Below, piece after piece: positions 3,959-29,229 of a DNA stretch of 33,069 nucleotides. The notes below the pieces were generated by a model. The model did no database searches and was not told where the DNA came from. It saw only the letters and a program-made list of their open reading frames with translations. Position 1 is the stretch's first letter; the number at the start of each line of letters is the position of its first letter. This stretch comes from a virus, in the UHGV virus genome UHGV-1427736; one strand, written 5' to 3'. The position numbers and the translations under genes were made by a program.

Positions 3959-4378
3959 TCGTGCTTCCACTTCGCCGGAGCGCCTTTTCGCGCCATGTGA
4001 TGAGTTCGGTCAGGCTCATGGGATACAGTTCTGATGGCGGCCAGTGAAATATCACTGCCACATCCGCCATCAGGTCATCGACCGACAGATTTTTCGGGAA
4101 CGTCACTGCACCGAGTTCGGCGACAAAAAACCGACCACCTTACCGGCCAGCGCCACAAGGTCAGGCAGTTCCAGTGCGGCGACTTCCTGCTCGGTCAGCA
4201 TCGGTGCAGTCATGCGCGGCAGCACCTTAATCAGTGCATCGACTTCGGAGTTCGCGACCGCAGCCAGACTGACACCGCGCAGCGTCCCGGCACTGGGTTT
4301 CATCAGCGTGACCTGTTCGATAACCTGCTCACCACGTTTGACCGGATTGTCCAGGGTAATCACATTTTCTTTGTTCAT
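3951..4378 (-). CDS. E': Tail assembly chaperone gpE+E' (programmed -1 frameshift product)
   Basis: Manual translation: after a -1 slip at the TTTTTTG heptamer (minus strand, 4124-4130) the frame continues VAELGAVTFPKNLSVDDLMADVAVIFHWPPSELYPMSLTELITWREKALRRSGSTNE and stops at 3951-3953, overlapping the T start. This matches the conserved E/E' arrangement upstream of the tape measure. Confidence 0.5.
4103..4378 (-). CDS. E: Tail assembly chaperone gpE
   Basis: 91 aa ORF in the P2 E position between FII and T, ending ...KVVGFLSPNSVQ just after the slippery site. Confidence 0.8.
   Translation of the reverse strand: MNKENVITLDNPVKRGEQVIEQVTLMKPSAGTLRGVSLAAVANSEVDALIKVLPRMTAPMLTEQEVAALELPDLVALAGKVVGFLSPNSVQ
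4124..4130 (-). other. Slippery heptamer TTTTTTG for the E/E' -1 ribosomal frameshift
   Basis: Plus strand reads caaaaaa at 4124-4130, i.e. TTTTTTG on the coding strand, 6 codons before the gpE stop. Confidence 0.55.
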
Positions 4379-4434
4379 GGTTTTCTCACTTCTGAATCAG
4401 GGTTAACCGGTCAGCCAGGCTGACCGGATGAAAA

Positions 4435-4953
4435 TCACAGGCCGATATTGCGGCGGTGTTGCTCCAGCCGGTCGACGCCGTTCACCTTCTCAATCATGTT
4501 GATGGTGTCGATTTCGACCAGCTCCTTACCGTCCATCGTCAGCCGGAAATAGGTACAGACCACGGAGATTTTCGACTCGGTGTCTTCTCCCTGTTTACCC
4601 TCGCCGGTATCGATTTCTTTCTGACGTCCACGCATGACCACTTCGACGGCAACCGTTTCGCCGGTATCGTCGCGCTGGTAAGAGCCAGCAAAACGAATCG
4701 GCACGGCATCCACGCCGGTTGCTGCGTAAAGCTCCCAGATAACCGAATCCGGGAAGCCACCGAGCGACCACTCCATTGACAGCGCATCGTCATCAAGGCC
4801 GAGGTCTACCGGTGCGCTGCCGTTCATCCCCGCACCGCGATAGTTTTCGAGCTTACGGGTCAGTTTTGGTAGCGTGACGGACTTCGCAACGCCCTGATAG
4901 CTGTAGCCGTTCAGAAAGACGTTCATTAACTTGAGTTTGCGCGGCATTGCCAT
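4435..4953 (-). CDS. FII: Tail tube protein gpFII
   Basis: 172 aa ORF in the P2 FII position immediately downstream of FI. Confidence 0.85.
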   Translation of the reverse strand: MAMPRKLKLMNVFLNGYSYQGVAKSVTLPKLTRKLENYRGAGMNGSAPVDLGLDDDALSMEWSLGGFPDSVIWELYAATGVDAVPIRFAGSYQRDDTGETVAVEVVMRGRQKEIDTGEGKQGEDTESKISVVCTYFRLTMDGKELVEIDTINMIEKVNGVDRLEQHRRNIGL

Positions 4954-4965
4954 CGGTCAGGCTCC

Positions 4966-6156
4966 TTAATTGCTGTTAACCGAGGTGACCAGATTTGCCA
5001 GGTATTTATCGGTAATACGCTGGCGCAGGGTCAGGTTTTCGAGAGGAGGCACCGGGGTATAGTCGTAGTCGATATACAGTTTTCCGGCCTTGAGGGTTTC
5101 CGCATCGTTGGATTCTTCGCTGAACCAGCAGGTCGCATCCACGATATAGCCGTTTGTTTTCAGCTCACGGAATTTGGCATTGATGCCGTCAACGATGTCG
5201 CGAATCAGCGTTGCGGTGATGGGCTTGTCCACCGCCCACATGTGCGCCTCAGCCATCGTGTCGGCCAGCACCTGCGCGGTGCGGGTGTAGTTTTCAAAGA
5301 GGAACAGCGGGTCATCAGAGCAGGTACGGTTACCCCAGAAGCGGAAACCGTCGCGGCGAATCAGCGTTGTGACGCCAGACTCGTTCAACAGGTCAGCATC
5401 GGTGCCGGACTCCTGCAAATCCCAGAATACAGATGCGCTGATGCCGGTAACACCGTTTACCCCGACGTTGGACAGCGTTTTATGCCAGCCCTGCTCCTGG
5501 TCGATTTTAGCGCGCAGACCCAGCGCACGGGCGGTGGCATACGCGGTGGCGGTGGTACTGGTGACCGTATCCCATGCGAGGAAATCCGGCCAGATGACCA
5601 TCAGCTCACGCTGGCTGAAATTCTGGCGGTAGGCTTTCACCTCGGAAATGGTCTTACAGCCCCATGCGCTGATATATCCGAAAGCGCGCAGCTTCTGACA
5701 GACGGATGCTAGTGCAACAGCCACCTCTTTGGTATCCAGTCCCGGCACACCGAGAATACGCGGTTTAACACCGGTTACCGACTCCGCCGCCAGCAGGGCT
5801 TTCAGTCCGGTGTACTGACCGTTTTCGTCGGTGGTGCCGATGATATTGGAAACGGTCTGCGCAAGTTTCGTTTCCTCGTCGTCGCCGGTGCCGTCTTCCA
5901 CACGCACGACAACGGTGACCGGTTTTGACTGGTCGGCGATGGCCTGCAACGATGCCGCCAGCGTGCCTTTTTTACCGGCCTTTGCAATTGCGCTCTGCAC
6001 ATTGGTAATCAACACCGGTTTATTGAGGGGGAAGGTTTCCGCATCCGCATCGCTGGCCGTGCAGACCATGCCGACAATGGCAGTGGATACGGTGGAAATG
6101 ACGCGGGTGCCGTCGTTAATCTCCAGCACCTGCACGCCATGATGATAGTCACTCAT
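4966..6156 (-). CDS. FI: Contractile tail sheath protein gpFI
   Basis: Sheath-protein-sized ORF in the P2 FI position. The ORF-track start at 6309 gives a 51-aa N-terminal extension; I place the start at the ATG at 6156 (MSDYHHGVQVLE...), which has a GGAG RBS. Confidence 0.85.
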   Translation of the reverse strand: MSDYHHGVQVLEINDGTRVISTVSTAIVGMVCTASDADAETFPLNKPVLITNVQSAIAKAGKKGTLAASLQAIADQSKPVTVVVRVEDGTGDDEETKLAQTVSNIIGTTDENGQYTGLKALLAAESVTGVKPRILGVPGLDTKEVAVALASVCQKLRAFGYISAWGCKTISEVKAYRQNFSQRELMVIWPDFLAWDTVTSTTATAYATARALGLRAKIDQEQGWHKTLSNVGVNGVTGISASVFWDLQESGTDADLLNESGVTTLIRRDGFRFWGNRTCSDDPLFLFENYTRTAQVLADTMAEAHMWAVDKPITATLIRDIVDGINAKFRELKTNGYIVDATCWFSEESNDAETLKAGKLYIDYDYTPVPPLENLTLRQRITDKYLANLVTSVNSN

Positions 6157-6655: not shown

Positions 6656-8920
6656 ATGGGTTTGCAAAGCATAAGAATAAAAAACTTACTATCATTTAAT
6701 GATGTAATAATAAATTCCCTAGAGGATGTAAATTGCATTGTAGGGATGAATAATGTTGGCAAATCCAATCTTATGAAAATATTGAAATATTTTTACGACA
6801 AACTTGACGACATAAAAGTAATACCTCCTGATTTTCATTCTAGTTATACTCCTTCAGGGTCAATAACATTGACTTATGATGTAACAAGAATAAAGAGAAT
6901 TGTAATGAACCCTAATAACAATGGTCGCTTTCACAAGCATATTTATAACACTTTATTTAAGCCACAATCATTCATCCGAAAGCCGCAGAAATTCTGTCTT
7001 CCTTTCATATCTCCTTTGGGTTTCCAAAGAAAAAGCACTTATAGCATTACACTCACAATTTCTAAAGATGACTCCGTAACTTGGTCAATTAGCACACCAA
7101 ATGCCCGGCATCTAATTAAAACTCTATTTCCTTTTTTCCATATTGAAACCAGACACATTGACTTATACGACTGGAATAGCATATGGAAAATGCTCAGCAG
7201 TATAAATTCCTTTAATTTCTCTGAAATAAAAAAAGAAGAACTCCTTGAGTTTTTGAATGAGAAAATATCAACTAAGCGGGGTAGTTACAAGAAGTATATA
7301 GAAAGAGTTGAAAATGTAATCCATACTAAACCTTACACCTATAAAGATAAAGTCGTTAATTATCTAAAAATAGTTTTAGATGGCGATATTTTCATAAATA
7401 AAGGTGAAGAACTACATGTTCAGTCGGATGGCACGAACTCTCACAAATATCTTGAAATTATACTTAGCCTATTAATTTCATTAACAAGAACAGAATTTAT
7501 CAATCCAATTATATATATTGATGAACCTGAAATTGGGCTACATCCAAAACTTAGCGAGAACTTTATTGAGAACATAAGCCTGACATATAAAAAGTATGAT
7601 AAAACCCATGAGGAAATTGAGCCTGGAAAATATTCAACACCATATCCAACTCTTATATTTAGCACTCATTCTCCGAGTTTACTAAAACTCACGCTAAAAT
7701 CTTTCTTACATAAACAGCAGGTTTTGCATTTTTCAAAAGAACGTGACAACTCGACCAAAATTTCAAAATTAAACTCTAAATATAATGACATTAGATTTAT
7801 AAATATGCTTAGCGATAATGAGGCCCGTCTATTCTTTAGTGAATACATTCTATTTGTAGAGGGCGCCACAGAAGTTGAATTGTTTAGAAATTATAATCTG
7901 CAAAAGCTGTTTCCAGTACTTAAAAGGTTAGATGTGTATGATTGCGATGAAGTAATGTTGAAAAATATAAACCCCAGCTACTCAAATGCAGCCATCCCAT
8001 TTCTAGTAGTAAAGGATATTGATCAGATTGCCGTTGTTGACTTCGAACATGAACAATTTAAATTTAATTCGAAAGGGAAATCAATTATTAATAAAATCAT
8101 TAAGAGAGATAAACTACACTATTTTTCGACATACCAAAAACCTTTTCTTAACGCAGCAAAATTTCTTTTAAGCCAAGATGAAAGGAAAGTAACATTCAGT
8201 GAAAATGGCCTAAAATTCAGACACTTCAGTATAGGCAGAGTTATAAGCGCAGTTAATTTTTTATCCTCTAAAGATAATGTTTATTATACTTCTACAACGA
8301 TAGAAGGCTCATTGATCAATGAATTCTCTTTAGAGACATTCTCTTTATGGATCATTGACATAGTAATGAGAAGCTTTAATGTAAATAATAAAAACCCTGT
8401 AAAAATGATTAATGCTCTGCTGCAAAAATACGATATTAAAACCCAATCAAAACAACTTTTTCCCAAAATACTTTCAAAATGTGAAACAAATCATAACCTA
8501 CCATTGCGACACATGAGATTATTGAAAATCATTAAAATTAGATATGCTAAAGAAATAATTGATGAGTTTAAAAAAACCATCCCCGACGTAAAAGACCAAG
8601 TTGCTATCTTGCGCCTTATTTTTAGTGGCAAAACAGAAACTCTTGTAAGTATAGAAATGCATTATAAAATTGATCAAAAACCGATACGGCAAGATATATT
8701 GGATTATATCAAAGCATTAAAGTCAGAAAATTTCTCTTTTATGAGTTCTTACATAGGAAAGACTTCTGGATGGGTTACAAGCTTCATTGATTTTAGCCTT
8801 AATCATTATTCAGCCCTAGATAAAGAAAATGTCGAAAAAAAATTCCGCTTGGCTTTTCCTGAAATTTCGCATATCATCGATCATGCTTCTTCTTCGATAG
8901 AAGCTGGAGGGCTCAAATGA
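6656..8920 (+). CDS. OLD-family nuclease: ABC-type ATPase fused to a C-terminal Toprim-like domain
   Basis: 754 aa. Walker A GMNNVGKSN (aa ~30), Walker B/D-loop IIYIDEPEIGLHP, H-loop LIFSTHSPS; then FVEGATEVELF (aa ~400) and VVKDIDQ (aa ~455), consistent with Toprim Glu and DxD motifs. Gene is markedly AT-rich compared with the flanking phage genes. Confidence 0.7.
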   Translation: MGLQSIRIKNLLSFNDVIINSLEDVNCIVGMNNVGKSNLMKILKYFYDKLDDIKVIPPDFHSSYTPSGSITLTYDVTRIKRIVMNPNNNGRFHKHIYNTLFKPQSFIRKPQKFCLPFISPLGFQRKSTYSITLTISKDDSVTWSISTPNARHLIKTLFPFFHIETRHIDLYDWNSIWKMLSSINSFNFSEIKKEELLEFLNEKISTKRGSYKKYIERVENVIHTKPYTYKDKVVNYLKIVLDGDIFINKGEELHVQSDGTNSHKYLEIILSLLISLTRTEFINPIIYIDEPEIGLHPKLSENFIENISLTYKKYDKTHEEIEPGKYSTPYPTLIFSTHSPSLLKLTLKSFLHKQQVLHFSKERDNSTKISKLNSKYNDIRFINMLSDNEARLFFSEYILFVEGATEVELFRNYNLQKLFPVLKRLDVYDCDEVMLKNINPSYSNAAIPFLVVKDIDQIAVVDFEHEQFKFNSKGKSIINKIIKRDKLHYFSTYQKPFLNAAKFLLSQDERKVTFSENGLKFRHFSIGRVISAVNFLSSKDNVYYTSTTIEGSLINEFSLETFSLWIIDIVMRSFNVNNKNPVKMINALLQKYDIKTQSKQLFPKILSKCETNHNLPLRHMRLLKIIKIRYAKEIIDEFKKTIPDVKDQVAILRLIFSGKTETLVSIEMHYKIDQKPIRQDILDYIKALKSENFSFMSSYIGKTSGWVTSFIDFSLNHYSALDKENVEKKFRLAFPEISHIIDHASSSIEAGGLK

Positions 8921-9034
8921 GCTGACGCATGCCGTCACTTGCTCCAGCAAACACTAGCTCGGATTGTCTTGCGTCCGCTAAGCCGCTTTAAGCCTCACGG
9001 GGTGTAAAGATGTTATTGGTATCGAAGAGGAAGC
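8885..9034 (+). ncRNA. Candidate retron msr-msd (non-coding RNA) flanked by a1/a2 inverted repeats
   Basis: GCTTCTTCTTCGAT (8885-8898) and ATCGAAGAGGAAGC (9021-9034) form a 14-bp inverted repeat with one G-U wobble, enclosing ~122 nt that is GC-richer than the flanks. Inside: stem GCTGGAG (8903-8909) / CTCCAGC (8942-8948) around two small hairpins (GCTCA..TGAGC and TGACG..CGTCA). The repeat lies directly upstream of the RT and a2 overlaps its RBS. Confidence 0.3.
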
Positions 9035-9040
9035 TTTTAC

Positions 9041-10138
9041 ATGAAACATAAAATTAATAAAATTAACAATGATTTTTATAAAAATTTTTATCTAAGAGAA
9101 ACATTCTCCGATGATATTATTATGACTCACGGAGTCCCTGAGATTTCCAATGACGATTATAAAAGCATTTCATTAAAGAATAGATTATGTTTCACTATAA
9201 GAAAAAGCTCCCCGCATAAAAAAATACAAGAAAGACTTATAAAAAATTTCCTAGTAAAAGTTCCTCTTAGCTCACCTGCAATTGCCTATCGTAAAAAATT
9301 AAACTATTTGAATTTTCTAGAACCTCATATCCATGGTGAGAACTTTTGTCGAATTGACTTATGTAATTTTTTTCATAACATAAACTATAACTTTGCAAGG
9401 GAGTGTTTCAAATCCTACTTTGAAGATGAATATCTGGTAAATAAAAAAATCAAAGTTATTGATGCATTTTTAAATAGTTTATCTATTGAGATTGTAGTCA
9501 ACAATAAAAAGAAAAAAATATTTCCAATGGGATTCGCCACATCACCTTTCATATCCAATATAATTTTCAGAAAGTTAGATATTTTAATTAAAAGTTTGTG
9601 TGACAAAAGAAGCATCATTTACACTCGTTATGCTGATGATATGCTTTTTTCGAGCTCCGGGAAAGACAAACTTCTTGGAAGTGAACATTTTGACAACGAG
9701 ATATCAACTATTGTCAATACGGCAGGACTGTCCCTCAACAAACATAAAAAAATATTTAAGAAAGGCATAATCTCACTAAACGGCTATGTAATAGAAAATA
9801 AAAATGGAGGGGGAGAGAGAGGGAGTATAAGAATATCTAATGGAAAAATGTATTTAATACGGAAAGCACTAGATAAATTTAAAAAGGGATATTCTAAAGA
9901 GCATATTTGCAAAAAAGTATTTTCTGTTAAATCACCAACTGTCAAGTATAATAACAATGCAGATCAGTTTGTAACGGATTTTTATAATTCACAATTCTCT
10001 AATAAGTTAGCTGGTTATCGTTCATATTTAATATCATTAGTAAAATTTAATGATAAATTCAGATGTTTTCACGAAAACGAAATCACCAAATACTCAGTGA
10101 TTATTGATGAAATTTCTAATGCACTGCTAAAACCCTAG
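9041..10138 (+). CDS. Retron-type reverse transcriptase
   Basis: 365 aa. RT motifs IFPMGFATSPFISNIIFRKLD and IIYTRYADDMLF (YADD box), plus PHIHGENFCRIDLCNFF, align closely with the retron Ec86 RT as I recall it. Size and lack of extra domains fit a retron RT. GAGGAAG RBS. AT-rich. Confidence 0.8.
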   Translation: MKHKINKINNDFYKNFYLRETFSDDIIMTHGVPEISNDDYKSISLKNRLCFTIRKSSPHKKIQERLIKNFLVKVPLSSPAIAYRKKLNYLNFLEPHIHGENFCRIDLCNFFHNINYNFARECFKSYFEDEYLVNKKIKVIDAFLNSLSIEIVVNNKKKKIFPMGFATSPFISNIIFRKLDILIKSLCDKRSIIYTRYADDMLFSSSGKDKLLGSEHFDNEISTIVNTAGLSLNKHKKIFKKGIISLNGYVIENKNGGGERGSIRISNGKMYLIRKALDKFKKGYSKEHICKKVFSVKSPTVKYNNNADQFVTDFYNSQFSNKLAGYRSYLISLVKFNDKFRCFHENEITKYSVIIDEISNALLKP

Positions 10139-21662: not shown

Positions 21663-21835
21663 TGTCAGGAGTCCTGAATAGTGATTAGAGGAGTCACATG
21701 TCGGCATCAGTTTCCCGACGATGCGCATCCTCCGCCATCAGTCCCGGATGGCTTATCACTGACACAACAGCACCTTAGCGAATCGCGGGGCGCGACTCAG
21801 TAGCCTTGCCGTGTATTCATCACGGCGAGGTATTC
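21663..21835. promoter_or_regulatory. Divergent promoter region between O and P (expected P2 late promoters)
   Basis: 173-bp intergenic region between divergent O and P starts. Contains the dyad GTCGG-N10-CCGAC at 21700-21719. Late-promoter identity is inferred from P2 genome organisation, not from a matched consensus. Confidence 0.4.
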
Positions 21836-23608
21836 ATGACCATCACCACAGACACCACTCTTTTGCACGACCCGCGTCGTCAGGCGGCGCTGCTGTACTG
21901 GCAGGGGTTTTCCGTGCCGCAGATTGCCGCCATGTTGCAGATGAAACGCCCGACGGTGCAGAGCTGGAAACAGCGCGACGGCTGGGACAGCGTTGCCCCC
22001 ATCAGCCGTGTCGAAATGAGTCTGGAAGCGCGGCTGACCCAGCTCATTATCAAACCGCAGAAAACCGGCGGTGACTTCAAGGAAATTGACCTGCTCGGAC
22101 GCCAGATTGAACGACTGGCACGGGTAAACCGCTACAACCAGACCGGCAACGAGGCAGACCTTAATCCGAACATCGCTAACCGCAACAAAGGCGGGCGACG
22201 CAAACCGAAAAAGAATTTTTTCAGCGACGAGGCTATCGAAAAGCTGGAGCAGATTTTCTTTGAGCAGTCTTTCGAATATCAGTTGCACTGGTATCGCGCC
22301 GGGCTTGAGCACCGCATCCGCGATATCCTGAAATCCCGCCAGATTGGCGCGACGTTTTATTTTTCCCGCGAGGCGCTGCTGCGCGCCCTGAAAACCGGTC
22401 ATAACCAGATTTTTCTGTCGGCCAGTAAAACGCAGGCGTATGTGTTCCGCGAATACATCATCGCCTTTGCCCGGCTGGTTGACGTTGACCTGACCGGTGA
22501 CCCGATTGCCCTGGGCAATAACGGCGCAAAACTGATTTTTCTCGGCACCAACTCCAACACCGCACAGAGCCATAACGGCGACCTGTACGTCGACGAGATT
22601 TTCTGGATCCCGAATTTTCAGGTACTGCGTAAGGTGGCATCAGGTATGGCCTCACAGAGTCACCTGCGCTCGACCTATTTCTCCACCCCGTCCACGCTGG
22701 CGCACGACGCCTACCCGTTCTGGTCGGGGGAACTGTTTAACCGGGGACGCGCCAGCGCCGCTGAACGCGTGGAAATCGACGTCAGTCATAACGCCCTTGC
22801 CGGTGGGCTTCTCTGTGCGGACGGCCAGTGGCGGCAGATTGTCACCATTGAGGACGCGCTGAAAGGCGGCTGCACGCTGTTCGACATTGAGCAGCTCAAA
22901 CGTGAAAACAGCGCCGACGATTTTAAAAACCTGTTCATGTGTGAATTTGTTGACGACAAGGCGTCGGTGTTCCCGTTCGAGGAGCTGCAACGCTGCATGG
23001 TCGACACGCTGGAAGAATGGGAAGACTATGCGCCGTTTGCCGCCAATCCGTTCGGCTCCCGCCCGGTATGGATTGGTTACGACCCGTCACACCGTGGCGA
23101 CAGCGCCGGATGCGTGGTACTGGCACCGCCGGTGGTGGCCGGTGGCAAATTCAGAATACTTGAGCGTCACCAGTGGAAAGGCATGGACTTTGCCACTCAG
23201 GCTGAATCCATCCGCAAACTCACTGAAAAATACAACGTCGAATACATCGGAATTGATGCCACCGGCCTCGGTGTCGGCGTGTTCCAGCTCGTGCGCTCGT
23301 TCTATCCCGCCGCGCGCGATATCCGCTACACACCGGAAATGAAAACCGCAATGGTGCTCAAGGCAAAAGACGTTATCCGTCGTGGCTGTCTGGAATATGA
23401 CGTCAGCGCCACCGACATCACCAGCTCGTTTATGGCTATCCGCAAGACCATGACCAGCAGCGGACGCAGCGCCACCTATGAGGCCAGCCGCAGCGAGGAA
23501 GCCAGCCACGCCGACCTCGCCTGGGCGACCATGCACGCCCTGTTAAATGAGCCACTCACCGCCGGTATCAGCACCTCGCTGACATCCACCATTCTGGAGT
23601 TTTACTGA
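21836..23608 (+). CDS. P: Terminase large (ATPase) subunit gpP
   Basis: Start placed at MTITTDTTLLHDPRRQAALLYWQGFS (ATG at 21836, 590 aa). P2 P position. Confidence 0.9.
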   Translation: MTITTDTTLLHDPRRQAALLYWQGFSVPQIAAMLQMKRPTVQSWKQRDGWDSVAPISRVEMSLEARLTQLIIKPQKTGGDFKEIDLLGRQIERLARVNRYNQTGNEADLNPNIANRNKGGRRKPKKNFFSDEAIEKLEQIFFEQSFEYQLHWYRAGLEHRIRDILKSRQIGATFYFSREALLRALKTGHNQIFLSASKTQAYVFREYIIAFARLVDVDLTGDPIALGNNGAKLIFLGTNSNTAQSHNGDLYVDEIFWIPNFQVLRKVASGMASQSHLRSTYFSTPSTLAHDAYPFWSGELFNRGRASAAERVEIDVSHNALAGGLLCADGQWRQIVTIEDALKGGCTLFDIEQLKRENSADDFKNLFMCEFVDDKASVFPFEELQRCMVDTLEEWEDYAPFAANPFGSRPVWIGYDPSHRGDSAGCVVLAPPVVAGGKFRILERHQWKGMDFATQAESIRKLTEKYNVEYIGIDATGLGVGVFQLVRSFYPAARDIRYTPEMKTAMVLKAKDVIRRGCLEYDVSATDITSSFMAIRKTMTSSGRSATYEASRSEEASHADLAWATMHALLNEPLTAGISTSLTSTILEFY

Positions 23609-24642
23609 TGAGCAAGAAAAAAGGGAAAACACCGCAACCTGCGGCAAAAAAAATGACCGCCAGCGCCCCGAAAATGGAGGCATTCACCTTTGGTGAGCCG
23701 GTGCCGGTACTCGACCGCCGTGACATTCTGGATTACGTCGAGTGCATCAGTAACGGCAGATGGTATGAGCCACCGGTCAGCTTTACCGGTCTGGCAAAAA
23801 GCCTGCGTGCTGCCGTACATCACAGCTCACCGATTTACGTCAAACGTAATATTCTGGCTTCAACGTTTATTCCGCACCCGTGGCTTTCCCAGCAGGATTT
23901 CAGCCGCTTTGTGCTGGATTTTCTGGTGTTCGGTAATGCGTTTCTGGAAAAGCGTTACAGCACCACCGGTAAGGTCATCAGACTGGAAACCTCACCGGCA
24001 AAATATACCCGCCGTGGTGTGGAAGAGGATGTTTACTGGTGGGTGCCGTCCTTCAACGAGCCGACAGCCTTCGCGCCCGGCTCCGTGTTTCACCTGCTGG
24101 AGCCCGATATTAATCAGGAGCTGTACGGCCTGCCGGAATATCTGAGCGCCCTTAACTCTGCCTGGCTGAATGAGTCGGCCACGCTGTTCCGCCGCAAGTA
24201 TTACGAAAACGGCGCACATGCCGGATACATCATGTACGTCACTGATGCCGTGCAGGATCGCAACGATATCGAAATGCTTCGCGAAAACATGGTGAAGTCG
24301 AAAGGCCGCAACAACTTTAAAAACCTGTTTCTCTATGCCCCGCAGGGGAAAGCCGACGGCATTAAAATTATCCCGCTCAGTGAAGTGGCAACGAAGGACG
24401 ATTTTTTTAATATCAAAAAAGCCAGCGCCGCTGACCTGCTGGACGCGCACCGCATCCCCTTTCAGTTGATGGGCGGCAAGCCGGAGAACGTCGGGTCGCT
24501 GGGCGATATTGAGAAAGTGGCAAAGGTCTTTGTCCGCAATGAGCTTATCCCGTTACAGGACAGGATCCGCGAGATAAACGGCTGGCTCGGTCAGGAGGTC
24601 ATCCGCTTTAAAAACTACTCACTGGACACTGACAACGGCTGA
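23608..24642 (+). CDS. Q: Portal protein gpQ
   Basis: 344 aa ORF; ATGA overlap with the P stop, as in P2. Confidence 0.9.
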   Translation: MSKKKGKTPQPAAKKMTASAPKMEAFTFGEPVPVLDRRDILDYVECISNGRWYEPPVSFTGLAKSLRAAVHHSSPIYVKRNILASTFIPHPWLSQQDFSRFVLDFLVFGNAFLEKRYSTTGKVIRLETSPAKYTRRGVEEDVYWWVPSFNEPTAFAPGSVFHLLEPDINQELYGLPEYLSALNSAWLNESATLFRRKYYENGAHAGYIMYVTDAVQDRNDIEMLRENMVKSKGRNNFKNLFLYAPQGKADGIKIIPLSEVATKDDFFNIKKASAADLLDAHRIPFQLMGGKPENVGSLGDIEKVAKVFVRNELIPLQDRIREINGWLGQEVIRFKNYSLDTDNG

Positions 24643-24647
24643 ACATC

Positions 24648-24669
24648 GCCGCCTGCGGGCGGCTTTTTT
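24648..24669 (+). terminator. Rho-independent terminator after Q
   Basis: GCCGCC-tgcg-GGCGGC hairpin followed by TTTTTT, starting 6 nt after the Q stop. Confidence 0.65.
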
Positions 24670-24811
24670 ACACCCCGTCATCACGCCCTCACACGTTCGC
24701 CACTGTACAAAACACCCCGCAGACACACCAACGCCCCGGCAGGCCGACTAAACGCCATCACGACGCGCTCAGACGCTGAAAAAATAAAATCAGCACCACC
24801 GCCAGCGCGCA

Positions 24812-24830
24812 GTGCTTTCCCCGCCTCGCC
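24812..24830. other. P2-type cos site (19-nt cohesive end sequence)
   Basis: gtgctttccccgcctcgcc at 24812-24830 is the reverse complement of the P2 cohesive-end sequence GGCGAGGCGGGGAAAGCAC as I recall it, and sits in the expected position next to Q. Confidence 0.6.
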
Positions 24831-24958
24831 CGCCCGCTTCATGGGTCGGTTTTAATGCAGGTGCACGAACACACTGGAGACGCACCAGTACTGGCGGTGG
24901 TCACGTAGATCCGCCCCTTAAAAGCCATGCAGAATAATGCAACTATTGCGGGCGTCGG

Positions 24959-25378
24959 CTAATCATCTTCTAAAGGTGGAATTTTGATGCCACTAATTAG
25001 CAGTACTTTCCGGTATGCCTCAAAAATAATGTTGTGTGTTTTTTGTAAATCATCGAGCATTTTTTGCCGTCCTGCTGGGGTATCTTTGGCAAAATTATGA
25101 GCGCGAAAAAAATCATGTGCCAAGTAGTTTCTGGCTTTAAGAGCATCTGACACATACTCCAGTGTATCAGCATCCTCCACCATCCTAGACTTCAGTGCGT
25201 AATTCAATTTACCCAGCGTGTATTTATCCATTTCTAAAAACTGTTTTTTCAGCGACTGTATATCTTTCCCCTGACTCATATCATACTCAGTGATAACATT
25301 TATCAACTCAGTCTCCAGTAATTGAGCTGCTTCCGAAGCATAACCAAATTTCCAATAAACCGTATCAAGCGTCACCAT
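24959..25378 (-). CDS. Small hypothetical protein with an Rx4H (HEPN-like) motif; partner of the adjacent HNH nuclease
   Basis: 139 aa, AT-rich, with no P2 counterpart I recognise. Contains ARNYLAHDFF (R-x4-H). GGGGAA RBS 8 nt ahead of the ATG; 91 bp downstream of the HNH gene on the same strand. Confidence 0.5.
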   Translation of the reverse strand: MVTLDTVYWKFGYASEAAQLLETELINVITEYDMSQGKDIQSLKKQFLEMDKYTLGKLNYALKSRMVEDADTLEYVSDALKARNYLAHDFFRAHNFAKDTPAGRQKMLDDLQKTHNIIFEAYRKVLLISGIKIPPLEDD

Positions 25379-25469
25379 ATAATCTATTCCCCATATAACA
25401 AATCACACCCCAAATTAAATCATAATACATAATTAAATCTAACGCCTCGCTGCACCAGAAGAAGTCATG

Positions 25470-26801
25470 TTAACGCTTATCATGGAACTTTTTCCATTTT
25501 GTCATCAACTTTCCAGCATCAAGTTCTACATGATGCGGTTGTAGAGTTTTACCCTCAAACATAGTTTTGTGGATACAATTAATAGAAAAATGAACCGTTA
25601 AGTCCTCTGGATTAATCCCCATTAATCCTTTATCAAACATTCGGTGTAAACTTACTTCAAGTAACAGGCCATTAGATGTGTTATTATTTGCTGATTCTGT
25701 TATTGCTTCAATATGTGCGGCTTCCAATATCCCCTCTGGCAATGGATAGCCAGTAATAGCACATCTGCCATTGAAGTTATCCCAAACACGGCGTTTGAAA
25801 TCAGCTTGATCTCCAGCATGACGGACTTTGTGAGTAACCTCGACTGTTCGTCCTGTAGCACAGGTATCGTTTGCGGCCTTGAAAGGATTAGTTAGACTTT
25901 CATTAATGGCTATATCCGTTCCATCCATGATAAGAGATATTTCATTATTGGGTTCGGATGATGTTAATGGACTTATGTACTGATTGCTTAAAAAAGTCAT
26001 ACTAGATTCTTCATCAGTCGCGAGTTTCCACGCTTCTGATTGTGTCATTGTTAGCAATGCCGTTTGATAAACTTGCTTATTAAAATAACGTTTATCTTTC
26101 TTGTCACTCCCCATATTAATAGTACTAGATTTAATCGGAAGTGTTTTATCACCAATTAGTAGATCACGTATTTCTACAGTCTCTTCTAAGGTATCAATAG
26201 GAGCTACTATAGGGTTAGTCAACGGGTTATCTACATGATCTACGTGGTTGTGTCGTAAATGCCACTCTATAGCACTATCTTTTATATGTATCTCGCAGAC
26301 AGGGCATACAATAAGCCCCATAGATGTTACAGGTAGCTTTTTGCCACCGATTAAGCGTAATGTATTTGCATTCTGGTTATGTACTTTCTTTTGGTTCTGT
26401 GTCAGTACACTACGCTTAGCCTCTAAACGGGTCGGAATCTTAGCAAGATTAAGCGATTTACGGCTCTCTTGTCTCTCAAGATCATAGATCCGAATCCCTG
26501 CTCCAGTTTTGATTTTTGTCCACATAGAGATAGAACTAAGGAATTTATGTCCATGTACTTTTTCATAATCAGCATAAGCTTGCAAAGTAGCAGTGGAACT
26601 ATCTAATCCTTTTTTACGGAGTGCTGTATATTGCTGAAAAAGATTAATAGCATGAGCTGTAATAGAGCGCCTATTCTCTATAATTTGCGTTTTTTTTGCT
26701 GCTTGTTCTGCTTGCAATGCTTTTTGTTCAGGGGTAAGCGACTTCTTTTTGGCTTTCTTGGTTCTTTTCTTACTCAAAGTTTTCTTACTGTTATTGTTCA
26801 T
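25470..26801 (-). CDS. Zinc-finger / HNH (His-Me finger) nuclease with a basic N-terminal tail
   Basis: 443 aa. Lys-rich N-terminus (MNNNSKKTLSKKRTKKAKKKS); C2H2-like CPVCEIHIKDSAIEWHLRHNH; C-terminal HNH motif GRCAITGYPLPEGILEAAHIEAI...NGLLLEVSLHRMFDKGL. AT-rich gene between cos and A. Confidence 0.65.
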   Translation of the reverse strand: MNNNSKKTLSKKRTKKAKKKSLTPEQKALQAEQAAKKTQIIENRRSITAHAINLFQQYTALRKKGLDSSTATLQAYADYEKVHGHKFLSSISMWTKIKTGAGIRIYDLERQESRKSLNLAKIPTRLEAKRSVLTQNQKKVHNQNANTLRLIGGKKLPVTSMGLIVCPVCEIHIKDSAIEWHLRHNHVDHVDNPLTNPIVAPIDTLEETVEIRDLLIGDKTLPIKSSTINMGSDKKDKRYFNKQVYQTALLTMTQSEAWKLATDEESSMTFLSNQYISPLTSSEPNNEISLIMDGTDIAINESLTNPFKAANDTCATGRTVEVTHKVRHAGDQADFKRRVWDNFNGRCAITGYPLPEGILEAAHIEAITESANNNTSNGLLLEVSLHRMFDKGLMGINPEDLTVHFSINCIHKTMFEGKTLQPHHVELDAGKLMTKWKKFHDKR

Positions 26802-26910
26802 TTTGCAAGCCTTTAATCTAATTCATGGAAAGGGGCATTCACTTGCCCTGTATCCAGTAAACTGACATAACACGATATAAGCAAGCTCCGTAATTCTTTC
26901 ATGTTAATCA

Positions 26911-29229
26911 TCAATGGTCCATTGTGAATCCCGGCCACTCATCAGCGACCGGATACGTGAATTTTTTACCGTCGTAATTTACAGTCGCGCCACGCGCCAG
27001 CGCCTCAAGCTCCCATCGCTGCGGCCTGATACCGTTCTGAGCAAGGTCAACGCGGATACGGGTGATTTGCATTCGTTCCGACCTGTTCAGTCTGGCCGAT
27101 GGCGCTATTTCATGCGGTTTTAACGGGCTTCCGTTTCTTTGCTGACGGTTTGGTCTTCTCAGGCCGTGTTTTAATGCGCTTCTGAGCGCCCTCACGACCT
27201 CCGGGTCATTCCATTCGATAACACCGTCATCAACCAGATTAAGCACGGCTGCGGCGTGCTCAGAAGGTGTGGGAGCCGGTAACGAAGTATCACCACCGGT
27301 GAGCTTTCCACAGTTATTGACAGGACTCCGAGGCGCGGCGATGCCGCTTTTTAAAGTCAAAGGCTCAACGACCGGAACTTTCGGCACAATGCGCCAGTCC
27401 GTCGTTCTGGTGATATGAATATGACGCGCGCCGAGATGCGGCGCGTAAATGCCGACCACTCTCTCGACTTCTTCCTCATACTCGTTAACGTCATCCGACG
27501 GGCTACGGGCGACCCTGACAGTCTGACAATCGCGCGGGACATTTGCCCCACCCTGCGCGCTGATATACAACGCAAAATCACCACTGTCTGCGGCGGCGCG
27601 TGCAGCCTCGACGCGTTCGTCAAACTCATCAGCAATGCTGACGCCGCGAGGCAATTTGCGTAGTTCACGGTAAGCCCCCATTGTCGGCAGGCCAACCGTT
27701 TTAAATTGCGGAATGCGCCACGTTGACGCCCATGCGGTAACAGCCGCGGCAGTATCTTTCAGCGGCCTGCCAGTATCGTTATCGAGCTGACCATCCAGTG
27801 CATAGCCGTCGATGTTTTTTGAGATGTATTTCGCGATATATCCCGCAGCACCGCCCCGGTTAAGGTGTTTTGCCTGAAAACGGTTTCGCGCAGCGCCTCT
27901 TTCGTCACCATCCTCTTTGAGCGCATAGCGACGCATGATTTCGATAATCTGGTTACGCTGGCGTGGATTACAAAAAAGCATCATATGCCAGTGCGGCGTT
28001 CCGTCGTGGTGTGGCTCAACGACACGCAAACCGTAGACCTGTAAATCATTATCCTTGAATGCCGTCCGCATCAGGCTCCAGATACGGCAGAGATAACGCT
28101 GCGCATCCTTTGGATTAAATGCCTCATCGTTCCAGCCGTGATTAAGCTGAACGGTTTTACTTTCGCCTTTTCCGACCTGACGTGTCGGGTGATACTTTGA
28201 CGGCGCGGTCAGCGTGATAAACATCCCCACATCACCCTCTGCGGCGGCGTAACGCTCAATACCGGCAATGGTGTTCATCAGCTCCATCCGGCGAATTTCA
28301 GGATTAGAAATACTGCCCATCACCTTACTGATAAGGTCGATGCGCTCGCCGGTTTCCCTGTTTTCAAGGTCACACGATTTAAGAAATTCCAGATTTGCCT
28401 GGCGGCGTGCACGTACATCACGAATGGCATGTTTACTGGCATAAGGAGAACGGTCTTTATTCACCTCCCCGACAGCAATCAGTAACGCCTCATGCCAGCG
28501 CATACGCTGGCCTTTAAGCTGATGAGTCCACCACTCATCGTTAAACAGACGGGCAATGGCAGAATATGCCTGCCTCGTGGTTATCTGTCCTTTACGGTAT
28601 TTTTTCCAGTAGAGCGGGGAAATATTGAAAGCACGTGCAGCGCCAGCAACATGACCATACAGATGATCCTGCGCCTCATCCGTAAACAGCGATTCTTTTT
28701 CGCCATGCGCATCCACCCAGGCATCGCAGAGTTCCTCATACATCATGAAAAGCTGCGATGAGATACGGGCGGCAAACTTTTTCAGCTCCTTGTCATTCAT
28801 CCCCGGCAGACGCGCATAATGGTCACGCTCTGCCAAAAACAGCAACGACGCGTCGGTGTTCATTTCATGGCGCTGATTCACACGCTCAATGCGCGGCCAT
28901 AAACGACGCTGAAAAGTGGATGTGAGGAAATAAAACCCGTGCACCGGGCTTTTATTGCGCCGGATGTAGTCATAGCGTGAAGTAAACAGCGAGCGCAAAA
29001 AGTAAGGCAGGCGGTTAATCGTGGATAAAACACCTTGCACCTGACGCATCTCATCACGTGTAAGGGGTCTTTCGCGCCCGACAGCCTCGCGTGGCGCGTT
29101 CCATGCATAAGCACCGGCAAACGTCTTACCGGTGCCTGCGGCAAATGCTGACGGAGGGACAAAACGCCCGGAGGCTTTAACGGCCATATGAGCCAAAAGC
29201 CTCTGAACAACGCTTGCTGAGTTGCTCAA
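26911..29229 (-). CDS. A: Replication initiation protein gpA (rolling-circle nickase)
   Basis: 772 aa ORF in the P2 A position. A possible alternative start at Met15 (MAVKASGRF, ATG at 29187) would reduce the overlap with the upstream ORF. Confidence 0.85.
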   Translation of the reverse strand: MSNSASVVQRLLAHMAVKASGRFVPPSAFAAGTGKTFAGAYAWNAPREAVGRERPLTRDEMRQVQGVLSTINRLPYFLRSLFTSRYDYIRRNKSPVHGFYFLTSTFQRRLWPRIERVNQRHEMNTDASLLFLAERDHYARLPGMNDKELKKFAARISSQLFMMYEELCDAWVDAHGEKESLFTDEAQDHLYGHVAGAARAFNISPLYWKKYRKGQITTRQAYSAIARLFNDEWWTHQLKGQRMRWHEALLIAVGEVNKDRSPYASKHAIRDVRARRQANLEFLKSCDLENRETGERIDLISKVMGSISNPEIRRMELMNTIAGIERYAAAEGDVGMFITLTAPSKYHPTRQVGKGESKTVQLNHGWNDEAFNPKDAQRYLCRIWSLMRTAFKDNDLQVYGLRVVEPHHDGTPHWHMMLFCNPRQRNQIIEIMRRYALKEDGDERGAARNRFQAKHLNRGGAAGYIAKYISKNIDGYALDGQLDNDTGRPLKDTAAAVTAWASTWRIPQFKTVGLPTMGAYRELRKLPRGVSIADEFDERVEAARAAADSGDFALYISAQGGANVPRDCQTVRVARSPSDDVNEYEEEVERVVGIYAPHLGARHIHITRTTDWRIVPKVPVVEPLTLKSGIAAPRSPVNNCGKLTGGDTSLPAPTPSEHAAAVLNLVDDGVIEWNDPEVVRALRSALKHGLRRPNRQQRNGSPLKPHEIAPSARLNRSERMQITRIRVDLAQNGIRPQRWELEALARGATVNYDGKKFTYPVADEWPGFTMDH

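What the first reader, a model, noticed from the sequence alone, without database searches (positions are those of the whole stretch)
25470..26801. HNH nuclease with unusual architecture: poly-lysine N-terminal tail, C2H2-like zinc finger, C-terminal His-Me finger
The first ~45 residues are about 40% Lys/Arg, suggesting non-specific nucleic-acid binding. A CxxC...HxxH element sits mid-protein. The C-terminal HNH motif carries the expected catalytic His (in LEAAHI), the Asn (NGLLL) and the second His (HRMFD). An unrestrained HNH DNase is toxic, so the protein is probably held inactive until triggered.
Basis: seen in the sequence. Interest (0 to 1): 0.6.

Follow-up and report, generated by a model that had tools for sequence, protein, structure and literature searches.

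The report
Solitary zinc-finger HNH nuclease, prophage cargo
A real but uncharacterised DNA-cutting enzyme (a classical-type zinc finger followed by an HNH nuclease) sits alone as a swappable one-gene cassette in the anti-phage hotspot of a P2-like E. coli prophage; it is probably a phage-exclusion nuclease, and the neighbouring 139-aa gene is not its partner.

Summary
The ORF at 25470-26801 (-) is real and encodes 443 aa under purifying selection (dN/dS 0.18-0.27). Its C-terminus is a genuine HNH_2 His-Me finger (Pfam E 6.6e-11). Its closest solved structures are the modification-dependent restriction enzymes VcaM4I and TagI, and H363, N377, H386 and D390 align with VcaM4I's validated catalytic residues. 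The mid-protein C166/C169/H181/H186 element is a conserved C2H2-type finger. The basic N-terminal tail exists but is 33% Lys/Arg over 45 residues, not about 40%.

The window is a P2-like prophage. The gene lies in the known gpA-gpQ/cos anti-phage hotspot as a discrete low-GC cassette (25458-26884). The same cassette occurs in a lambdoid prophage and in chromosomal islands, and more distant family members lie in an ICE and next to PARIS and NACHT genes. It is always solitary and never has a methyltransferase beside it.

The 139-aa neighbour lies outside the cassette and occurs with unrelated cargo elsewhere, so it is not a dedicated partner.

The N-terminal 330 residues are near-orphan: 6 cluster representatives among 1.84 billion proteins.

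Best reading: a single-protein, self-restrained defence nuclease of the Type IV-like kind with a new sensor module. Function and target are untested. It is a new variant of a known kind, of moderate interest.

The parts
25458..26884 (-). Mobile single-gene cassette: the HNH ORF plus about 83 bp upstream and 12 bp downstream, low GC (about 38% against about 55% in the flanks)
   Evidence: blastn: homology to the SaT040 P2-like prophage stops at 25455 and resumes at 26898. The Citrobacter islands L003 and L032 match 25458-26884 (about 83-85% identity). The lambdoid prophage L030 matches 25462-26826 (81%). The Enterobacter island L033 matches 25485-26673 (75-79%). GC profile.
25470..26801 (-). 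443-aa ORF: basic tail, helical region, C2H2 finger, linker, small helical module, linker, HNH_2 nuclease
   Evidence: dN/dS is 0.18-0.27 against three diverged homologs.
26727..26789 (-). Residues 5-25, Lys/Arg-rich tail (10 K/R in 21 residues)
   Evidence: K-rich in close homologs. Low pLDDT in the model.
26373..26732 (-). Residues 24-143, long alpha-helices (pLDDT 87-96 over about residues 21-110). Possible oligomerisation or coiled-coil module, specific to the close subfamily
   Evidence: AF2 model. Alignment. dN/dS 0.21-0.33.
26232..26360 (-). Residues 148-190, C2H2-type zinc finger (C166, C169, H181, H186) with a predicted beta-beta-alpha fold
   Evidence: The ligand positions are at least 90% conserved. 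pLDDT is 77-88, with strands at 163-165 and 172-174 and a helix at 175-185. All 9 non-HNH hits of the PDB profile search are C2H2 proteins, E 0.01-0.84. Homologs give sub-threshold Pfam zf-C2H2 hits.
26091..26231 (-). Residues 191-237, disordered linker. This is the site of an in-frame loss of a roughly 59-aa domain that the closest 500-512-aa homologs retain
   Evidence: pLDDT below 50. Insert and deletion junctions. dN/dS 0.38-0.57.
25971..26090 (-). Residues 238-277, small three-helix module ('YFNKQVYQTALLTMTQSEAWKLATDEE') conserved across the family
   Evidence: pLDDT about 90. Y245, A248 and A257 are nearly invariant. dN/dS 0.08-0.15. No family assignment.
25842..25970 (-). Residues 278-320, disordered variable linker
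   Evidence: pLDDT 27-35. dN/dS 0.37-0.52.
25473..25841 (-). Residues 321-443, HNH_2 beta-beta-alpha-metal nuclease domain. H363 is the general base, N377 is structural, and H386 and D390 are metal ligands
   Evidence: Pfam E 6.6e-11. VcaM4I profile hit E 1.1e-8. Foldseek hits to VcaM4I (2.1e-3) and TagI (2.3e-3), probability 1.00. Residue mapping. dN/dS 0.11-0.15.
24959..25378 (-). Neighbouring 139-aa ORF. NOT part of the cassette. An independent cos-proximal gene with an invariant RNxLxH motif of the HEPN Rx4-6H type
24812..24830 (-). P2 cos 19-mer GGCGAGGCGGGGAAAGCAC (context; hotspot boundary)
   Evidence: Exact match found. Its identity as the P2 cohesive end is from my own knowledge. Rousset et al. 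place the hotspot next to cos.
26911..29229 (-). Replication gene A (Phage_GPA), left boundary of the hotspot (context)
   Evidence: Pfam E 1.2e-123.
23608..24642 (+). Portal protein gpQ, right boundary of the hotspot (context)
   Evidence: Pfam Phage_portal. Annotation.

Best explanation
The gene is a stand-alone, horizontally shuffled one-gene cassette. It encodes a catalytically competent, NTP-independent HNH_2 DNA endonuclease, carried by a P2-like prophage in its gpA-gpQ/cos anti-phage hotspot. The most likely role is phage or mobile-element exclusion on behalf of the lysogen.

Proposed mechanism:
1. The N-terminal modules (K-rich tail, long helices, one C2H2-type zinc finger, a small three-helix module) bind nucleic acid and set the specificity.
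2. The C-terminal beta-beta-alpha-metal domain, probably acting as a dimer as in VcaM4I and TagI, cuts DNA.
3. No methyltransferase or immunity gene travels with the cassette. Host DNA must therefore be spared by the protein itself: either it recognises a feature that host DNA lacks (a phage-type base modification or structure, i.e. Type IV-like restriction), or it is auto-inhibited within the molecule until the sensor modules engage a target.

What is shown: the ORF, the domain identities, conservation of the catalytic residues, the cassette boundaries, its solitary distribution, and its location in the hotspot and in defence islands.
What is inferred: nuclease activity, the defence role, dimerisation, and how self DNA is spared.
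For: Nuclease identity:
- Pfam HNH_2 E 6.6e-11.
- Family profile against the PDB finds VcaM4I at 1.1e-8.
- Foldseek top hits are VcaM4I and TagI.
- H363, N377, H386 and D390 align with VcaM4I's mutationally validated H224, N241, D250 and D254. H363, N377 and H386 are invariant and D390 is at least 90% conserved.
- Purifying selection on all folded modules.

Hotspot location:
- The gene lies between gpA and gpQ next to cos. Rousset et al. 2022 (PMC9122126) define this locus as a reservoir of anti-phage systems.
- The segment is low in GC.
- The other low-GC island of the same prophage carries a type I-B retron.

Single-gene mobile module:
- Precise breakpoints.
- Homologs lie alone beside Gabija (GajA 2.6e-213, GajB 7e-163) and PARIS (AriA 8e-46, AriB 2.8e-24).
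- Homologs also lie beside CAP12/PCTIR TIR genes in a lambdoid moron site and in a resolvase island, near a NACHT gene, in an ICE, and in thiM/thiD-adjacent islands.
- No neighbour is conserved and no locus has a methyltransferase.

Auto-inhibition precedent: the isolated VcaM4I HNH dimer is toxic, and the full-length enzyme is auto-inhibited.
Against: - No experiment or publication addresses this family.
- PADLOC matches only generic 'HNH' models, so defence is guilt by association.
- No known modified-base reader (SRA, EVE, YTH, SBD, winged helix) was detected in the N-terminus, so the Type IV-like part is speculation.
- The window's protein lacks a roughly 59-aa domain that its closest relatives have and could be functionally impaired.
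- The HNH region of the model has only moderate confidence (pLDDT about 51-80).
- One of the 12 E. coli copies is interrupted by an IS3 element. That fits either a fitness cost or chance.
- The gene is rare: 12 of 5,426 complete E. coli genomes.
Confidence: 0.5

Rival explanations
1. Two-gene system. The HNH nuclease is a toxin or effector controlled by the adjacent 139-aa protein acting as antitoxin, sensor or co-effector.
For: The two genes are adjacent on the same strand, 91 nt apart, and both are low in GC. All 12 E. coli genomes that carry the HNH gene also carry the 139-aa gene. The 139-aa family has an invariant HEPN-like RNxLxH motif, which is typical of defence or toxin modules.
Against: The 12 genomes are at least 98.9% identical across the island, so they amount to one acquisition. 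The cassette breakpoint at 25455/25458 falls between the two genes. The 139-aa gene sits next to the portal gene, where cos lies, in E. coli ST131-type and Salmonella P2-like prophages with quite different cargo: DUF2971, or DinI plus others. None of 10 homolog contexts holds a relative of it, and the 139-aa gene in L008 is unrelated. A terminator-like hairpin lies between the two genes.
Confidence: 0.1
2. Selfish free-standing (homing-type) endonuclease. It spreads by cutting 'empty' hotspot alleles and being copied in by recombinational repair, with no benefit to the host.
For: It is a free-standing HNH gene between conserved phage genes. It combines DNA-binding modules with a nuclease. It is a discrete cassette with sharp breakpoints found in several phage types. 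Phage-borne HNH relatives exist.
Against: Homologs occupy at least five unrelated insertion contexts (P2 hotspot, lambdoid moron site, resolvase islands, ICE, thiM/thiD islands) rather than one cognate site. The nuclease is the HNH_2 type, closest to restriction enzymes, not the HNH_3/AP2 or PF01844 type seen in the homing-like gene of L021. It is present in only 12 of 2,156 E. coli genomes that match the surrounding P2-like backbone, which gives no sign of drive.
Confidence: 0.1
3. A phage life-cycle nuclease: for example an HNH that assists terminase at cos (like HK97 gp74), or a nuclease that degrades host or satellite (P4) DNA during lytic growth.
For: The gene lies within about 650 bp of cos and close to the portal and terminase genes. 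HNH-terminase partnerships are known in cos phages (own knowledge).
Against: Nearly all P2-like prophages lack the gene: 12 genomes have it, against 2,156 that match the flanks. No sequenced phage in the collection carries it. Relatives sit in non-phage islands and in an ICE. At 443 aa and multi-domain it is unlike the roughly 100-130-aa packaging HNH proteins (own knowledge).
Confidence: 0.07
4. A decaying or neutralised copy. Loss of the roughly 59-aa domain after the zinc finger has left a protein that no longer recognises its target, so it persists as harmless cargo.
For: The window's form lacks a domain that 8 close homologs have. The remnant region is predicted disordered. One E. coli copy is split by IS3.
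Against: The reading frame is intact and every catalytic and zinc ligand is retained. The same domain was lost in frame a second time, independently, in P0008, whose sister P0009 keeps it. More distant full-length relatives (P0011, P0012 and the roughly 490-aa subfamilies) never had it. This suggests the domain is an optional module.
Confidence: 0.1
5. A conventional sequence-specific (Type II/IIS-like) restriction endonuclease whose protective methyltransferase is encoded elsewhere in the genome.
For: HNH_2 also occurs in the Type II enzymes AlwI, BbrI and HphI (PMC5714182). A PADLOC Type II 'HNH' model hits at 1.8e-7.
Against: No methyltransferase lies next to any of the 11 loci examined. 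The cassette moves alone between hosts of different genera. That would be lethal for an unprotected sequence-specific enzyme.
Confidence: 0.05

Closest known systems
VcaM4I (EVE-HNH) and TagI (SRA-HNH) modification-dependent Type IV restriction endonucleases
   Same: The C-terminal HNH_2 nuclease domain is shared, and these are the best sequence and structure matches. The catalytic His, Asn and metal ligands are equivalent. Both are NTP-independent single polypeptides with an N-terminal sensor, a linker and a C-terminal nuclease. Neither has a cognate methyltransferase.
   Different: The N-terminus here is not a PUA-superfamily (EVE, SRA, YTH) reader. It has a basic tail, long helices, one C2H2-type zinc finger and a three-helix module, all without family assignment. 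The protein is about 140 residues longer and has two long disordered linkers. Dependence on DNA modification is untested.
ScoMcrA / phosphorothioate-dependent SBD-(SRA)-HNH endonucleases (NCBIfam NF045808)
   Same: The HNH_2 catalytic core is shared. The NCBIfam hit is confined to that core (E 2.9e-8, residues 330-421).
   Different: The score of 33 bits is far below the 180-bit cut-off, and there is no sulfur-binding domain.
P2 old/tin and other cargo of the P2 gpA-gpQ hotspot (Rousset et al. 2022, PMC9122126)
   Same: Same genomic slot next to cos, the same low-GC 'moron' character, and the same modular swapping.
   Different: The proteins are unrelated. This gene is not among the systems described or tested in that paper ('HNH' occurs 0 times in it) and is not in the specific models of PADLOC v2.
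Classical (eukaryote-type) C2H2 zinc fingers
   Same: The ligand pattern matches, exactly so in relatives: C-x2-C-x3-F-x5-psi-x2-H-x4-H. The predicted fold is beta-beta-alpha. The only non-HNH PDB profile hits are C2H2 proteins such as ZBTB17, a consensus finger and CTCF.
   Different: There is a single finger rather than a tandem array. The window's subfamily has x11 rather than x12 spacing. All hits are below the curated thresholds. Zinc binding and DNA binding have not been shown.
Free-standing HNH homing endonucleases of phages (HNH_3 + AP2 type)
   Same: A free-standing nuclease gene between conserved phage genes, built as a modular DNA-binding part plus a nuclease.
   Different: The HNH subtype is different and sits at the C-terminus. 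An AP2 domain was not detected in the family-specific insert. There are many unrelated insertion contexts.

Membership tests
His-Me finger / HNH_2 (PF13391) | Profile match above Pfam's gathering score | tested here: met
   42.3 bits against a cut-off of 21, E 6.6e-11, residues 347-397. All 10 homologs scanned also pass.
His-Me finger / HNH_2 (PF13391) | Catalytic His (general base), structural Asn, and metal-ligand His/Asp are present and conserved | tested here: met
   H363, N377, H386 and D390 align with VcaM4I H224, N241, D250 and D254. H363, N377 and H386 are invariant and D390 is at least 90% conserved in the 56-sequence alignment.
His-Me finger / HNH_2 (PF13391) | Beta-beta-alpha-metal fold | tested here: met
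   The AF2 model has strands at 360-363 and 378-381 and a helix at 383-390. Foldseek hits VcaM4I, TagI and Cas9 HNH domains, with probability 1.00 for the first two. Viral HNH proteins also match. Model confidence in this region is only moderate (pLDDT 51-80).
His-Me finger / HNH_2 (PF13391) | Metal-dependent nucleic-acid cleavage | not testable with these tools
   Needs biochemistry.
Type IV modification-dependent restriction endonuclease (VcaM4I/TagI/ScoMcrA-like) | Single polypeptide with a C-terminal HNH_2 nuclease and no cognate methyltransferase | tested here: met
   No methyltransferase in any of the 11 loci.
Type IV modification-dependent restriction endonuclease (VcaM4I/TagI/ScoMcrA-like) | Recognisable modified-base reader domain (SRA, EVE, YTH, ASCH, SBD, winged helix, NEco) | tested here: not met
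   No such domain found by Pfam, NCBIfam or PADLOC, by the PDB profile search or by Foldseek. Residues 1-330 have only 6 representative relatives in 1.84 billion proteins.
Type IV modification-dependent restriction endonuclease (VcaM4I/TagI/ScoMcrA-like) | Cleaves modified DNA but not unmodified DNA | not testable with these tools
   Needs in vitro cleavage assays or plating of T4 (glc-hmC), T4gt (hmC) and T4 dC phages.
Classical C2H2 zinc finger | Cys2-His2 ligand pattern with canonical spacing, conserved among homologs | tested here: met
   C166, C169, H181 and H186 are at least 90% conserved. Relatives show the exact consensus spacing; the window's subfamily is one residue shorter.
Classical C2H2 zinc finger | Profile match above curated thresholds | tested here: not met
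   The window's protein gives only OrsD at 15.3 bits against 26.6. The best homolog hit is zf-C2H2_4 at 21.3 bits against 27. PDB profile hits have E 0.01-0.84.
Classical C2H2 zinc finger | Beta-hairpin plus helix fold that brings the four ligands together; zinc binding | tested here: inconclusive
   Secondary structure and pLDDT (77-88) fit the fold. Model coordinates and metal binding could not be inspected.
P2 gpA-gpQ hotspot anti-phage cargo (Rousset et al. 2022) | Located between replication gene A and portal gene Q, next to cos, in a P2-like prophage | tested here: met
   The locus definition was read.
P2 gpA-gpQ hotspot anti-phage cargo (Rousset et al. 2022) | Demonstrated protection against phage | not testable with these tools
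   No publication found.
Any named defence system in PADLOC-DB v2 | Match to a system-specific model | tested here: not met
   Only generic 'HNH' models match: PDLC04132 at 2.2e-11 and PDLC03546 at 1.8e-7, both confined to the nuclease region.
Two-gene HNH + 139-aa system | The two families co-occur across independent loci | tested here: not met
   0 of 10 homolog contexts have a 139-aa relative. The 139-aa gene occurs without the HNH gene in E. coli and Salmonella P2-like prophages. The cassette breakpoint lies between the two genes.
HEPN superfamily (for the 139-aa neighbour) | Conserved Rx4-6H motif in an all-alpha domain | tested here: met
   R83-N84-x-L86-x-H88 is invariant in 22 sequences. 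The model has five helices at pLDDT 90.
HEPN superfamily (for the 139-aa neighbour) | Significant profile or fold match to known HEPN domains | tested here: inconclusive
Terminase-associated HNH of cos phages (HK97 gp74-like) | A small HNH protein present throughout the phage group and needed for packaging | tested here: not met
   Present in 12 genomes against 2,156 that carry the flanking P2-like backbone. Absent from all sequenced phages at the nucleotide level. The protein is 443 aa and multi-domain.
Free-standing homing endonuclease | One cognate insertion site shared by relatives | tested here: not met
   At least five unrelated insertion contexts.

The most novel reading that the evidence does not exclude
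The family is a new class of single-protein anti-phage restriction enzyme. A classical-type C2H2 zinc finger, together with an orphan three-helix module, acts as the sensor, reading a phage-specific DNA modification, structure or sequence context. On engagement it releases an otherwise auto-inhibited VcaM4I-type HNH dimer. The optional roughly 59-aa domain after the finger, lost twice in frame, would tune specificity. This would add a new reader domain to Type IV-like restriction and would be a rare functional use of a eukaryote-style C2H2 finger in bacterial immunity.
Probability: 0.25. Interest if true: 0.6.

Novelty: new variant of a known kind. Interest (0 to 1): 0.4.

Why it matters
If it is active in defence, this would be a compact (1.4 kb), self-contained nuclease that moves freely between P2-like and lambdoid prophages, ICEs and defence islands of Enterobacteria. 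It would use a sensor module not seen in any characterised restriction or defence enzyme. It would extend the list of reader domains fused to HNH_2 nucleases beyond the PUA, SBD and winged-helix domains. It could also yield a new DNA-recognition specificity of practical use, as the modification-dependent enzymes did. It further illustrates how hotspot cargo is exchanged as single-gene cassettes with sharp breakpoints. It is not a new principle: solitary sensor-nuclease fusions in defence hotspots are a well-known theme.

Tried and rejected
1. AP2 idea. By eye, the roughly 59-aa insert in close homologs looked like an AP2-type three-strand-plus-helix DNA-binding domain. Pfam gave no hit at E up to 10, and the PDB profile search returned only noise. 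The idea is unsupported and was dropped.

3. The 139-aa gene 2.3 kb from the Cronobacter homolog (L008) is unrelated to the window's 139-aa protein.

4. Searches for a named system or publication found nothing. These covered PADLOC, Rousset 2022, the 2026 P2/P4 paper, accession and keyword searches and DefensePredictor.

5. The exhaustive search with residues 1-330 found only 6 representatives. One (P0131) is a spurious low-complexity repeat protein.

6. Foldseek against viral structures returned only HNH-domain matches. The afdb50 library was unavailable.

7. Rfam found no RNA family in the window at gathering thresholds. No direct repeats flank the cassette. Promoter-like sites are no more frequent than in shuffles.

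8. A structural zinc site in the HNH domain (invariant C347, H404, C409) was considered. The VcaM4I paper mentions none, so this stays open.
Full report
**1. Setting**

The window is a P2-like (Peduovirus) prophage of E. coli.
- The terminase gene is at 21806-23608 and the portal gene gpQ at 23608-24642 (Pfam Phage_portal).
- The P2 cos 19-mer is at 24812-24830 on the minus strand. Its identity as the P2 cohesive end is from my own knowledge.
- Replication gene A is at 26911-29229 (Phage_GPA, E 1.2e-123).
- The window is 100% identical to E. coli UPEC85 over 24640-26920.
- Between gpQ/cos and gpA lies a segment of about 38% GC in a backbone of about 55% GC. It holds two minus-strand ORFs: 443 aa at 25470-26801, the subject of the finding, and 139 aa at 24959-25378.
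- Rousset et al. 2022 (PMC9122126, read) define exactly this gpA-gpQ, cos-proximal locus as a hotspot of anti-phage systems. In P2 itself it holds old and tin.

**2.

The ORF and all the cited motifs are at the stated places.

HNH domain:
- Pfam HNH_2 scores 42.3 bits against a cut-off of 21, E 6.6e-11.
- A profile of 56 family members finds VcaM4I in the PDB at E 1.1e-8.
- The AlphaFold model's C-terminal domain matches VcaM4I (6yex) and TagI (6ghs) best. Both are modification-dependent HNH restriction enzymes. Cas9 HNH domains and McrA follow.
- Through the pairwise alignment, H363, N377, H386 and D390 correspond to VcaM4I H224, N241, D250 and D254. H224, D250 and D254 were validated by mutagenesis (PMC7897488).
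- H363, N377 and H386 are invariant and D390 is at least 90% conserved in the 56-sequence family alignment.

Zinc finger:
- C166, C169, H181 and H186 are at least 90% conserved.
- The model shows a beta-hairpin plus helix at pLDDT 77-88.
- Other subfamilies carry the exact classical consensus C-x2-C-x3-F-x5-psi-x2-H-x4-H.
- Homologs give sub-threshold Pfam zf-C2H2 hits.
- All nine non-HNH hits of the family profile against the PDB are C2H2 proteins.

Corrections:
- The first 45 residues are 33% K/R, not about 40%. The real cluster is 10 K/R in residues 5-25, which is modestly unusual (467 of 20,000 shuffles).

**3. Anatomy**

The model is modular (mean pLDDT 66):
- a K-rich tail;
- long helices at residues 24-143 (pLDDT about 87-96 over much of the region);
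- the finger at 148-190;
- a disordered linker at 191-237;
- a small three-helix module at 238-277 (pLDDT about 90);
- a second disordered linker at 278-320;
- the HNH domain at 321-443.

dN/dS against three diverged homologs is 0.18-0.27 overall. It is lowest in the HNH domain (0.11-0.15), the three-helix module (0.08-0.15) and the finger (0.15-0.34). It is relaxed in the linkers (0.37-0.57). All folded modules are therefore constrained protein.

Residues 1-330 are near-orphan. An exhaustive phmmer search of 1.84 billion cluster representatives found six hits, one of them spurious.

The closest homologs (500-512 aa; Citrobacter, Pectobacterium, Enterobacter) carry an extra domain of about 59 aa right after the finger. 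The window's protein lost it in frame at the junction PI|DTLEE. P0008 lost it independently at VEG|LEE, while its sister P0009 keeps it. I could not assign this domain. My AP2 guess failed.

**4. The gene is a solitary, mobile, single-gene cassette**

blastn gives sharp breakpoints.
- Against another P2-like prophage (E. coli SaT040), homology runs from the portal gene through cos and the 139-aa gene to 25455. It resumes at 26898 in gpA.
- Exactly the intervening 25458-26884 matches Citrobacter chromosomal islands at about 83-85%.
- 25462-26826 matches a lambdoid prophage at 81%.
- 25485-26673 matches an Enterobacter island at 75-79%.

In complete E. coli genomes the cassette is rare. It is in 12 of 5,426 genomes, all at least 99% identical, mostly porcine ETEC. 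One copy is split by IS3.

Ten homolog loci were inspected:
- beside Gabija (GajA 2.6e-213, GajB 7e-163), with a resolvase;
- near PARIS (AriA 8e-46, AriB 2.8e-24);
- beside CAP12/PCTIR TIR genes, once in a lambdoid moron site between the Q antiterminator and the lysis genes, and once in a resolvase island;
- near a NACHT gene;
- inside ICE transfer genes;
- in thiM/thiD-adjacent islands of Cronobacter, E. coli and Enterobacter.

No neighbour is conserved and no methyltransferase is present at any locus.

**5. The 139-aa gene is not a partner**

- It lies outside the cassette.
- An 81%-identical copy sits in the same position next to the portal gene, where cos lies, in ST131-type E. coli prophages whose other cargo is DUF2971 plus two unknown genes.
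- A 71%-identical copy sits there in Salmonella P2-like prophages, with DinI and other genes.
- None of the HNH homolog loci has a relative of it, and the L008 139-aa gene is unrelated.

In its own right it is a small five-helix protein (pLDDT 90) with an invariant R83-N-x-L-x-H88 motif. That is the HEPN Rx4-6H signature. Profile and fold support for HEPN is weak.

**6. Most likely mechanism**

What is shown:
- the ORF is a catalytically intact HNH_2 nuclease fused to conserved putative nucleic-acid-binding modules;
- it is carried alone in defence hotspots and islands of several mobile-element types.

What is inferred:
- it is a prophage-borne exclusion or defence nuclease;
- because nothing travels with it that could protect host DNA, discrimination of self must be built into the protein.

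Two non-exclusive ways fit. In the first, it recognises something host DNA lacks, as the structurally closest enzymes VcaM4I, TagI and ScoMcrA do with modified bases. In the second, it is auto-inhibited within the molecule and released when the sensor engages. This has been shown for VcaM4I, whose isolated HNH dimer is toxic.

No known modified-base reader is present, so I do not file this as a Type IV enzyme. It works like one at the level of architecture only.

Confidence that it is an active nuclease with an exclusion or defence role is about 0.5. Confidence that the target is a DNA modification is lower.

**7. Rivals**

- Two-gene system with the 139-aa protein (0.1). The distribution data and the breakpoint contradict it.
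- Homing-type selfish endonuclease (0.1). Many unrelated insertion contexts and a restriction-type HNH argue against it.
- Packaging or lytic-cycle nuclease (0.07). Nearly all P2-like phages lack the gene.
- Decayed variant after loss of the domain (0.1). The frame and all ligands are intact, and the same domain was lost twice in frame.
- Type II enzyme with an unlinked methylase (0.05). A cassette that moves alone between genera argues against it.

**8. Novelty and score**

No publication, PADLOC system model or named family covers this architecture. The general theme is well established: a solitary sensor-nuclease fusion in a prophage defence hotspot, with an HNH_2 domain of the restriction type. 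I therefore rate it a new variant of a known kind, interest 0.4.

The most novel reading still open is a new Type IV-like restriction class that uses a classical C2H2 finger as reader. I give it a probability of about 0.25, and it would merit about 0.6 if true.

Noticed in passing
window 6656-10138 (+); low-GC island about 6.0-10.2 kb: The prophage's second low-GC island encodes a type I-B retron. The 754-aa ORF matches ATPase-Toprim_I-B (PADLOC E 1.6e-210) and the 365-aa ORF matches RT_I-B (E 2.7e-106; Pfam RVT_1). The msr/msd RNA was not located, and Rfam gave no hit at gathering thresholds.
   Followed up: partly
window 24959-25378 (-): The 139-aa ORF next to cos is an independent gene kept at the same position in E. 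coli and Salmonella P2-like prophages with different cargo. It has an invariant RNxLxH (HEPN-like) motif, an invariant SEAAQLLE(T/V)EL helix and a confident five-helix model. It has no Pfam family (PHROG 12893, function unknown). It may be a small stand-alone RNase-type defence or toxin gene.
   Followed up: partly
L019:5084-10113 (metagenome contig with the distant 153-aa homolog P0112): The distant homolog of the 139-aa protein sits in a run of small genes that includes DUF4145 (a HEPN-superfamily domain, as I recall), DUF6988 and DUF5677, next to a resolvase and a phage capsid fragment. This may be an island of HEPN-like genes.
   Followed up: no
homologs P0002-P0010 relative to window residues about 203-204 (window about 26190-26200): A domain of about 59 aa after the zinc finger is present in the commonest relatives. 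It was lost in frame twice independently: in the window's lineage and in P0008, whose sister P0009 retains it. The domain has no detectable family.
   Followed up: yes
E. coli W13-16, NZ_CP080235.1 about 2268-5884 (hits H31, H52): In one of the 12 E. coli genomes that carry the cassette, the HNH gene is interrupted by an IS3-family transposase.
   Followed up: no
L008, L021, L033 (Cronobacter, E. coli, Enterobacter): Three different family members sit in variable islands next to the thiamine-salvage kinase genes (Phos_pyr_kin/HK, i.e. thiD/thiM). T6SS Hcp and YadA-anchor genes are nearby in L021 and L033. This suggests a shared integration hotspot across genera. L021 also holds a 150-aa HNH_3+AP2 homing-type endonuclease.
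   Followed up: no
L003/L004/L032: 3658-4837 (+): A 389-aa gene with no Pfam or PADLOC match lies directly upstream of the 502-aa HNH homolog, on the same strand, in the Citrobacter-type islands. It is absent from the window and from the other contexts.
   Followed up: partly
Salmonella phages 7-11 and SeKF_80 (hits H53, H56), about 86.6-87.0 kb: Salmonella phages with genomes of about 90 kb (7-11, SeKF_80) encode a region 46-48% identical to the HNH domain (residues 317-439). In SeKF_80 it is annotated as a 'ParB-like partition protein'. Relatives of this nuclease domain are thus also used by other phages.
   Followed up: no
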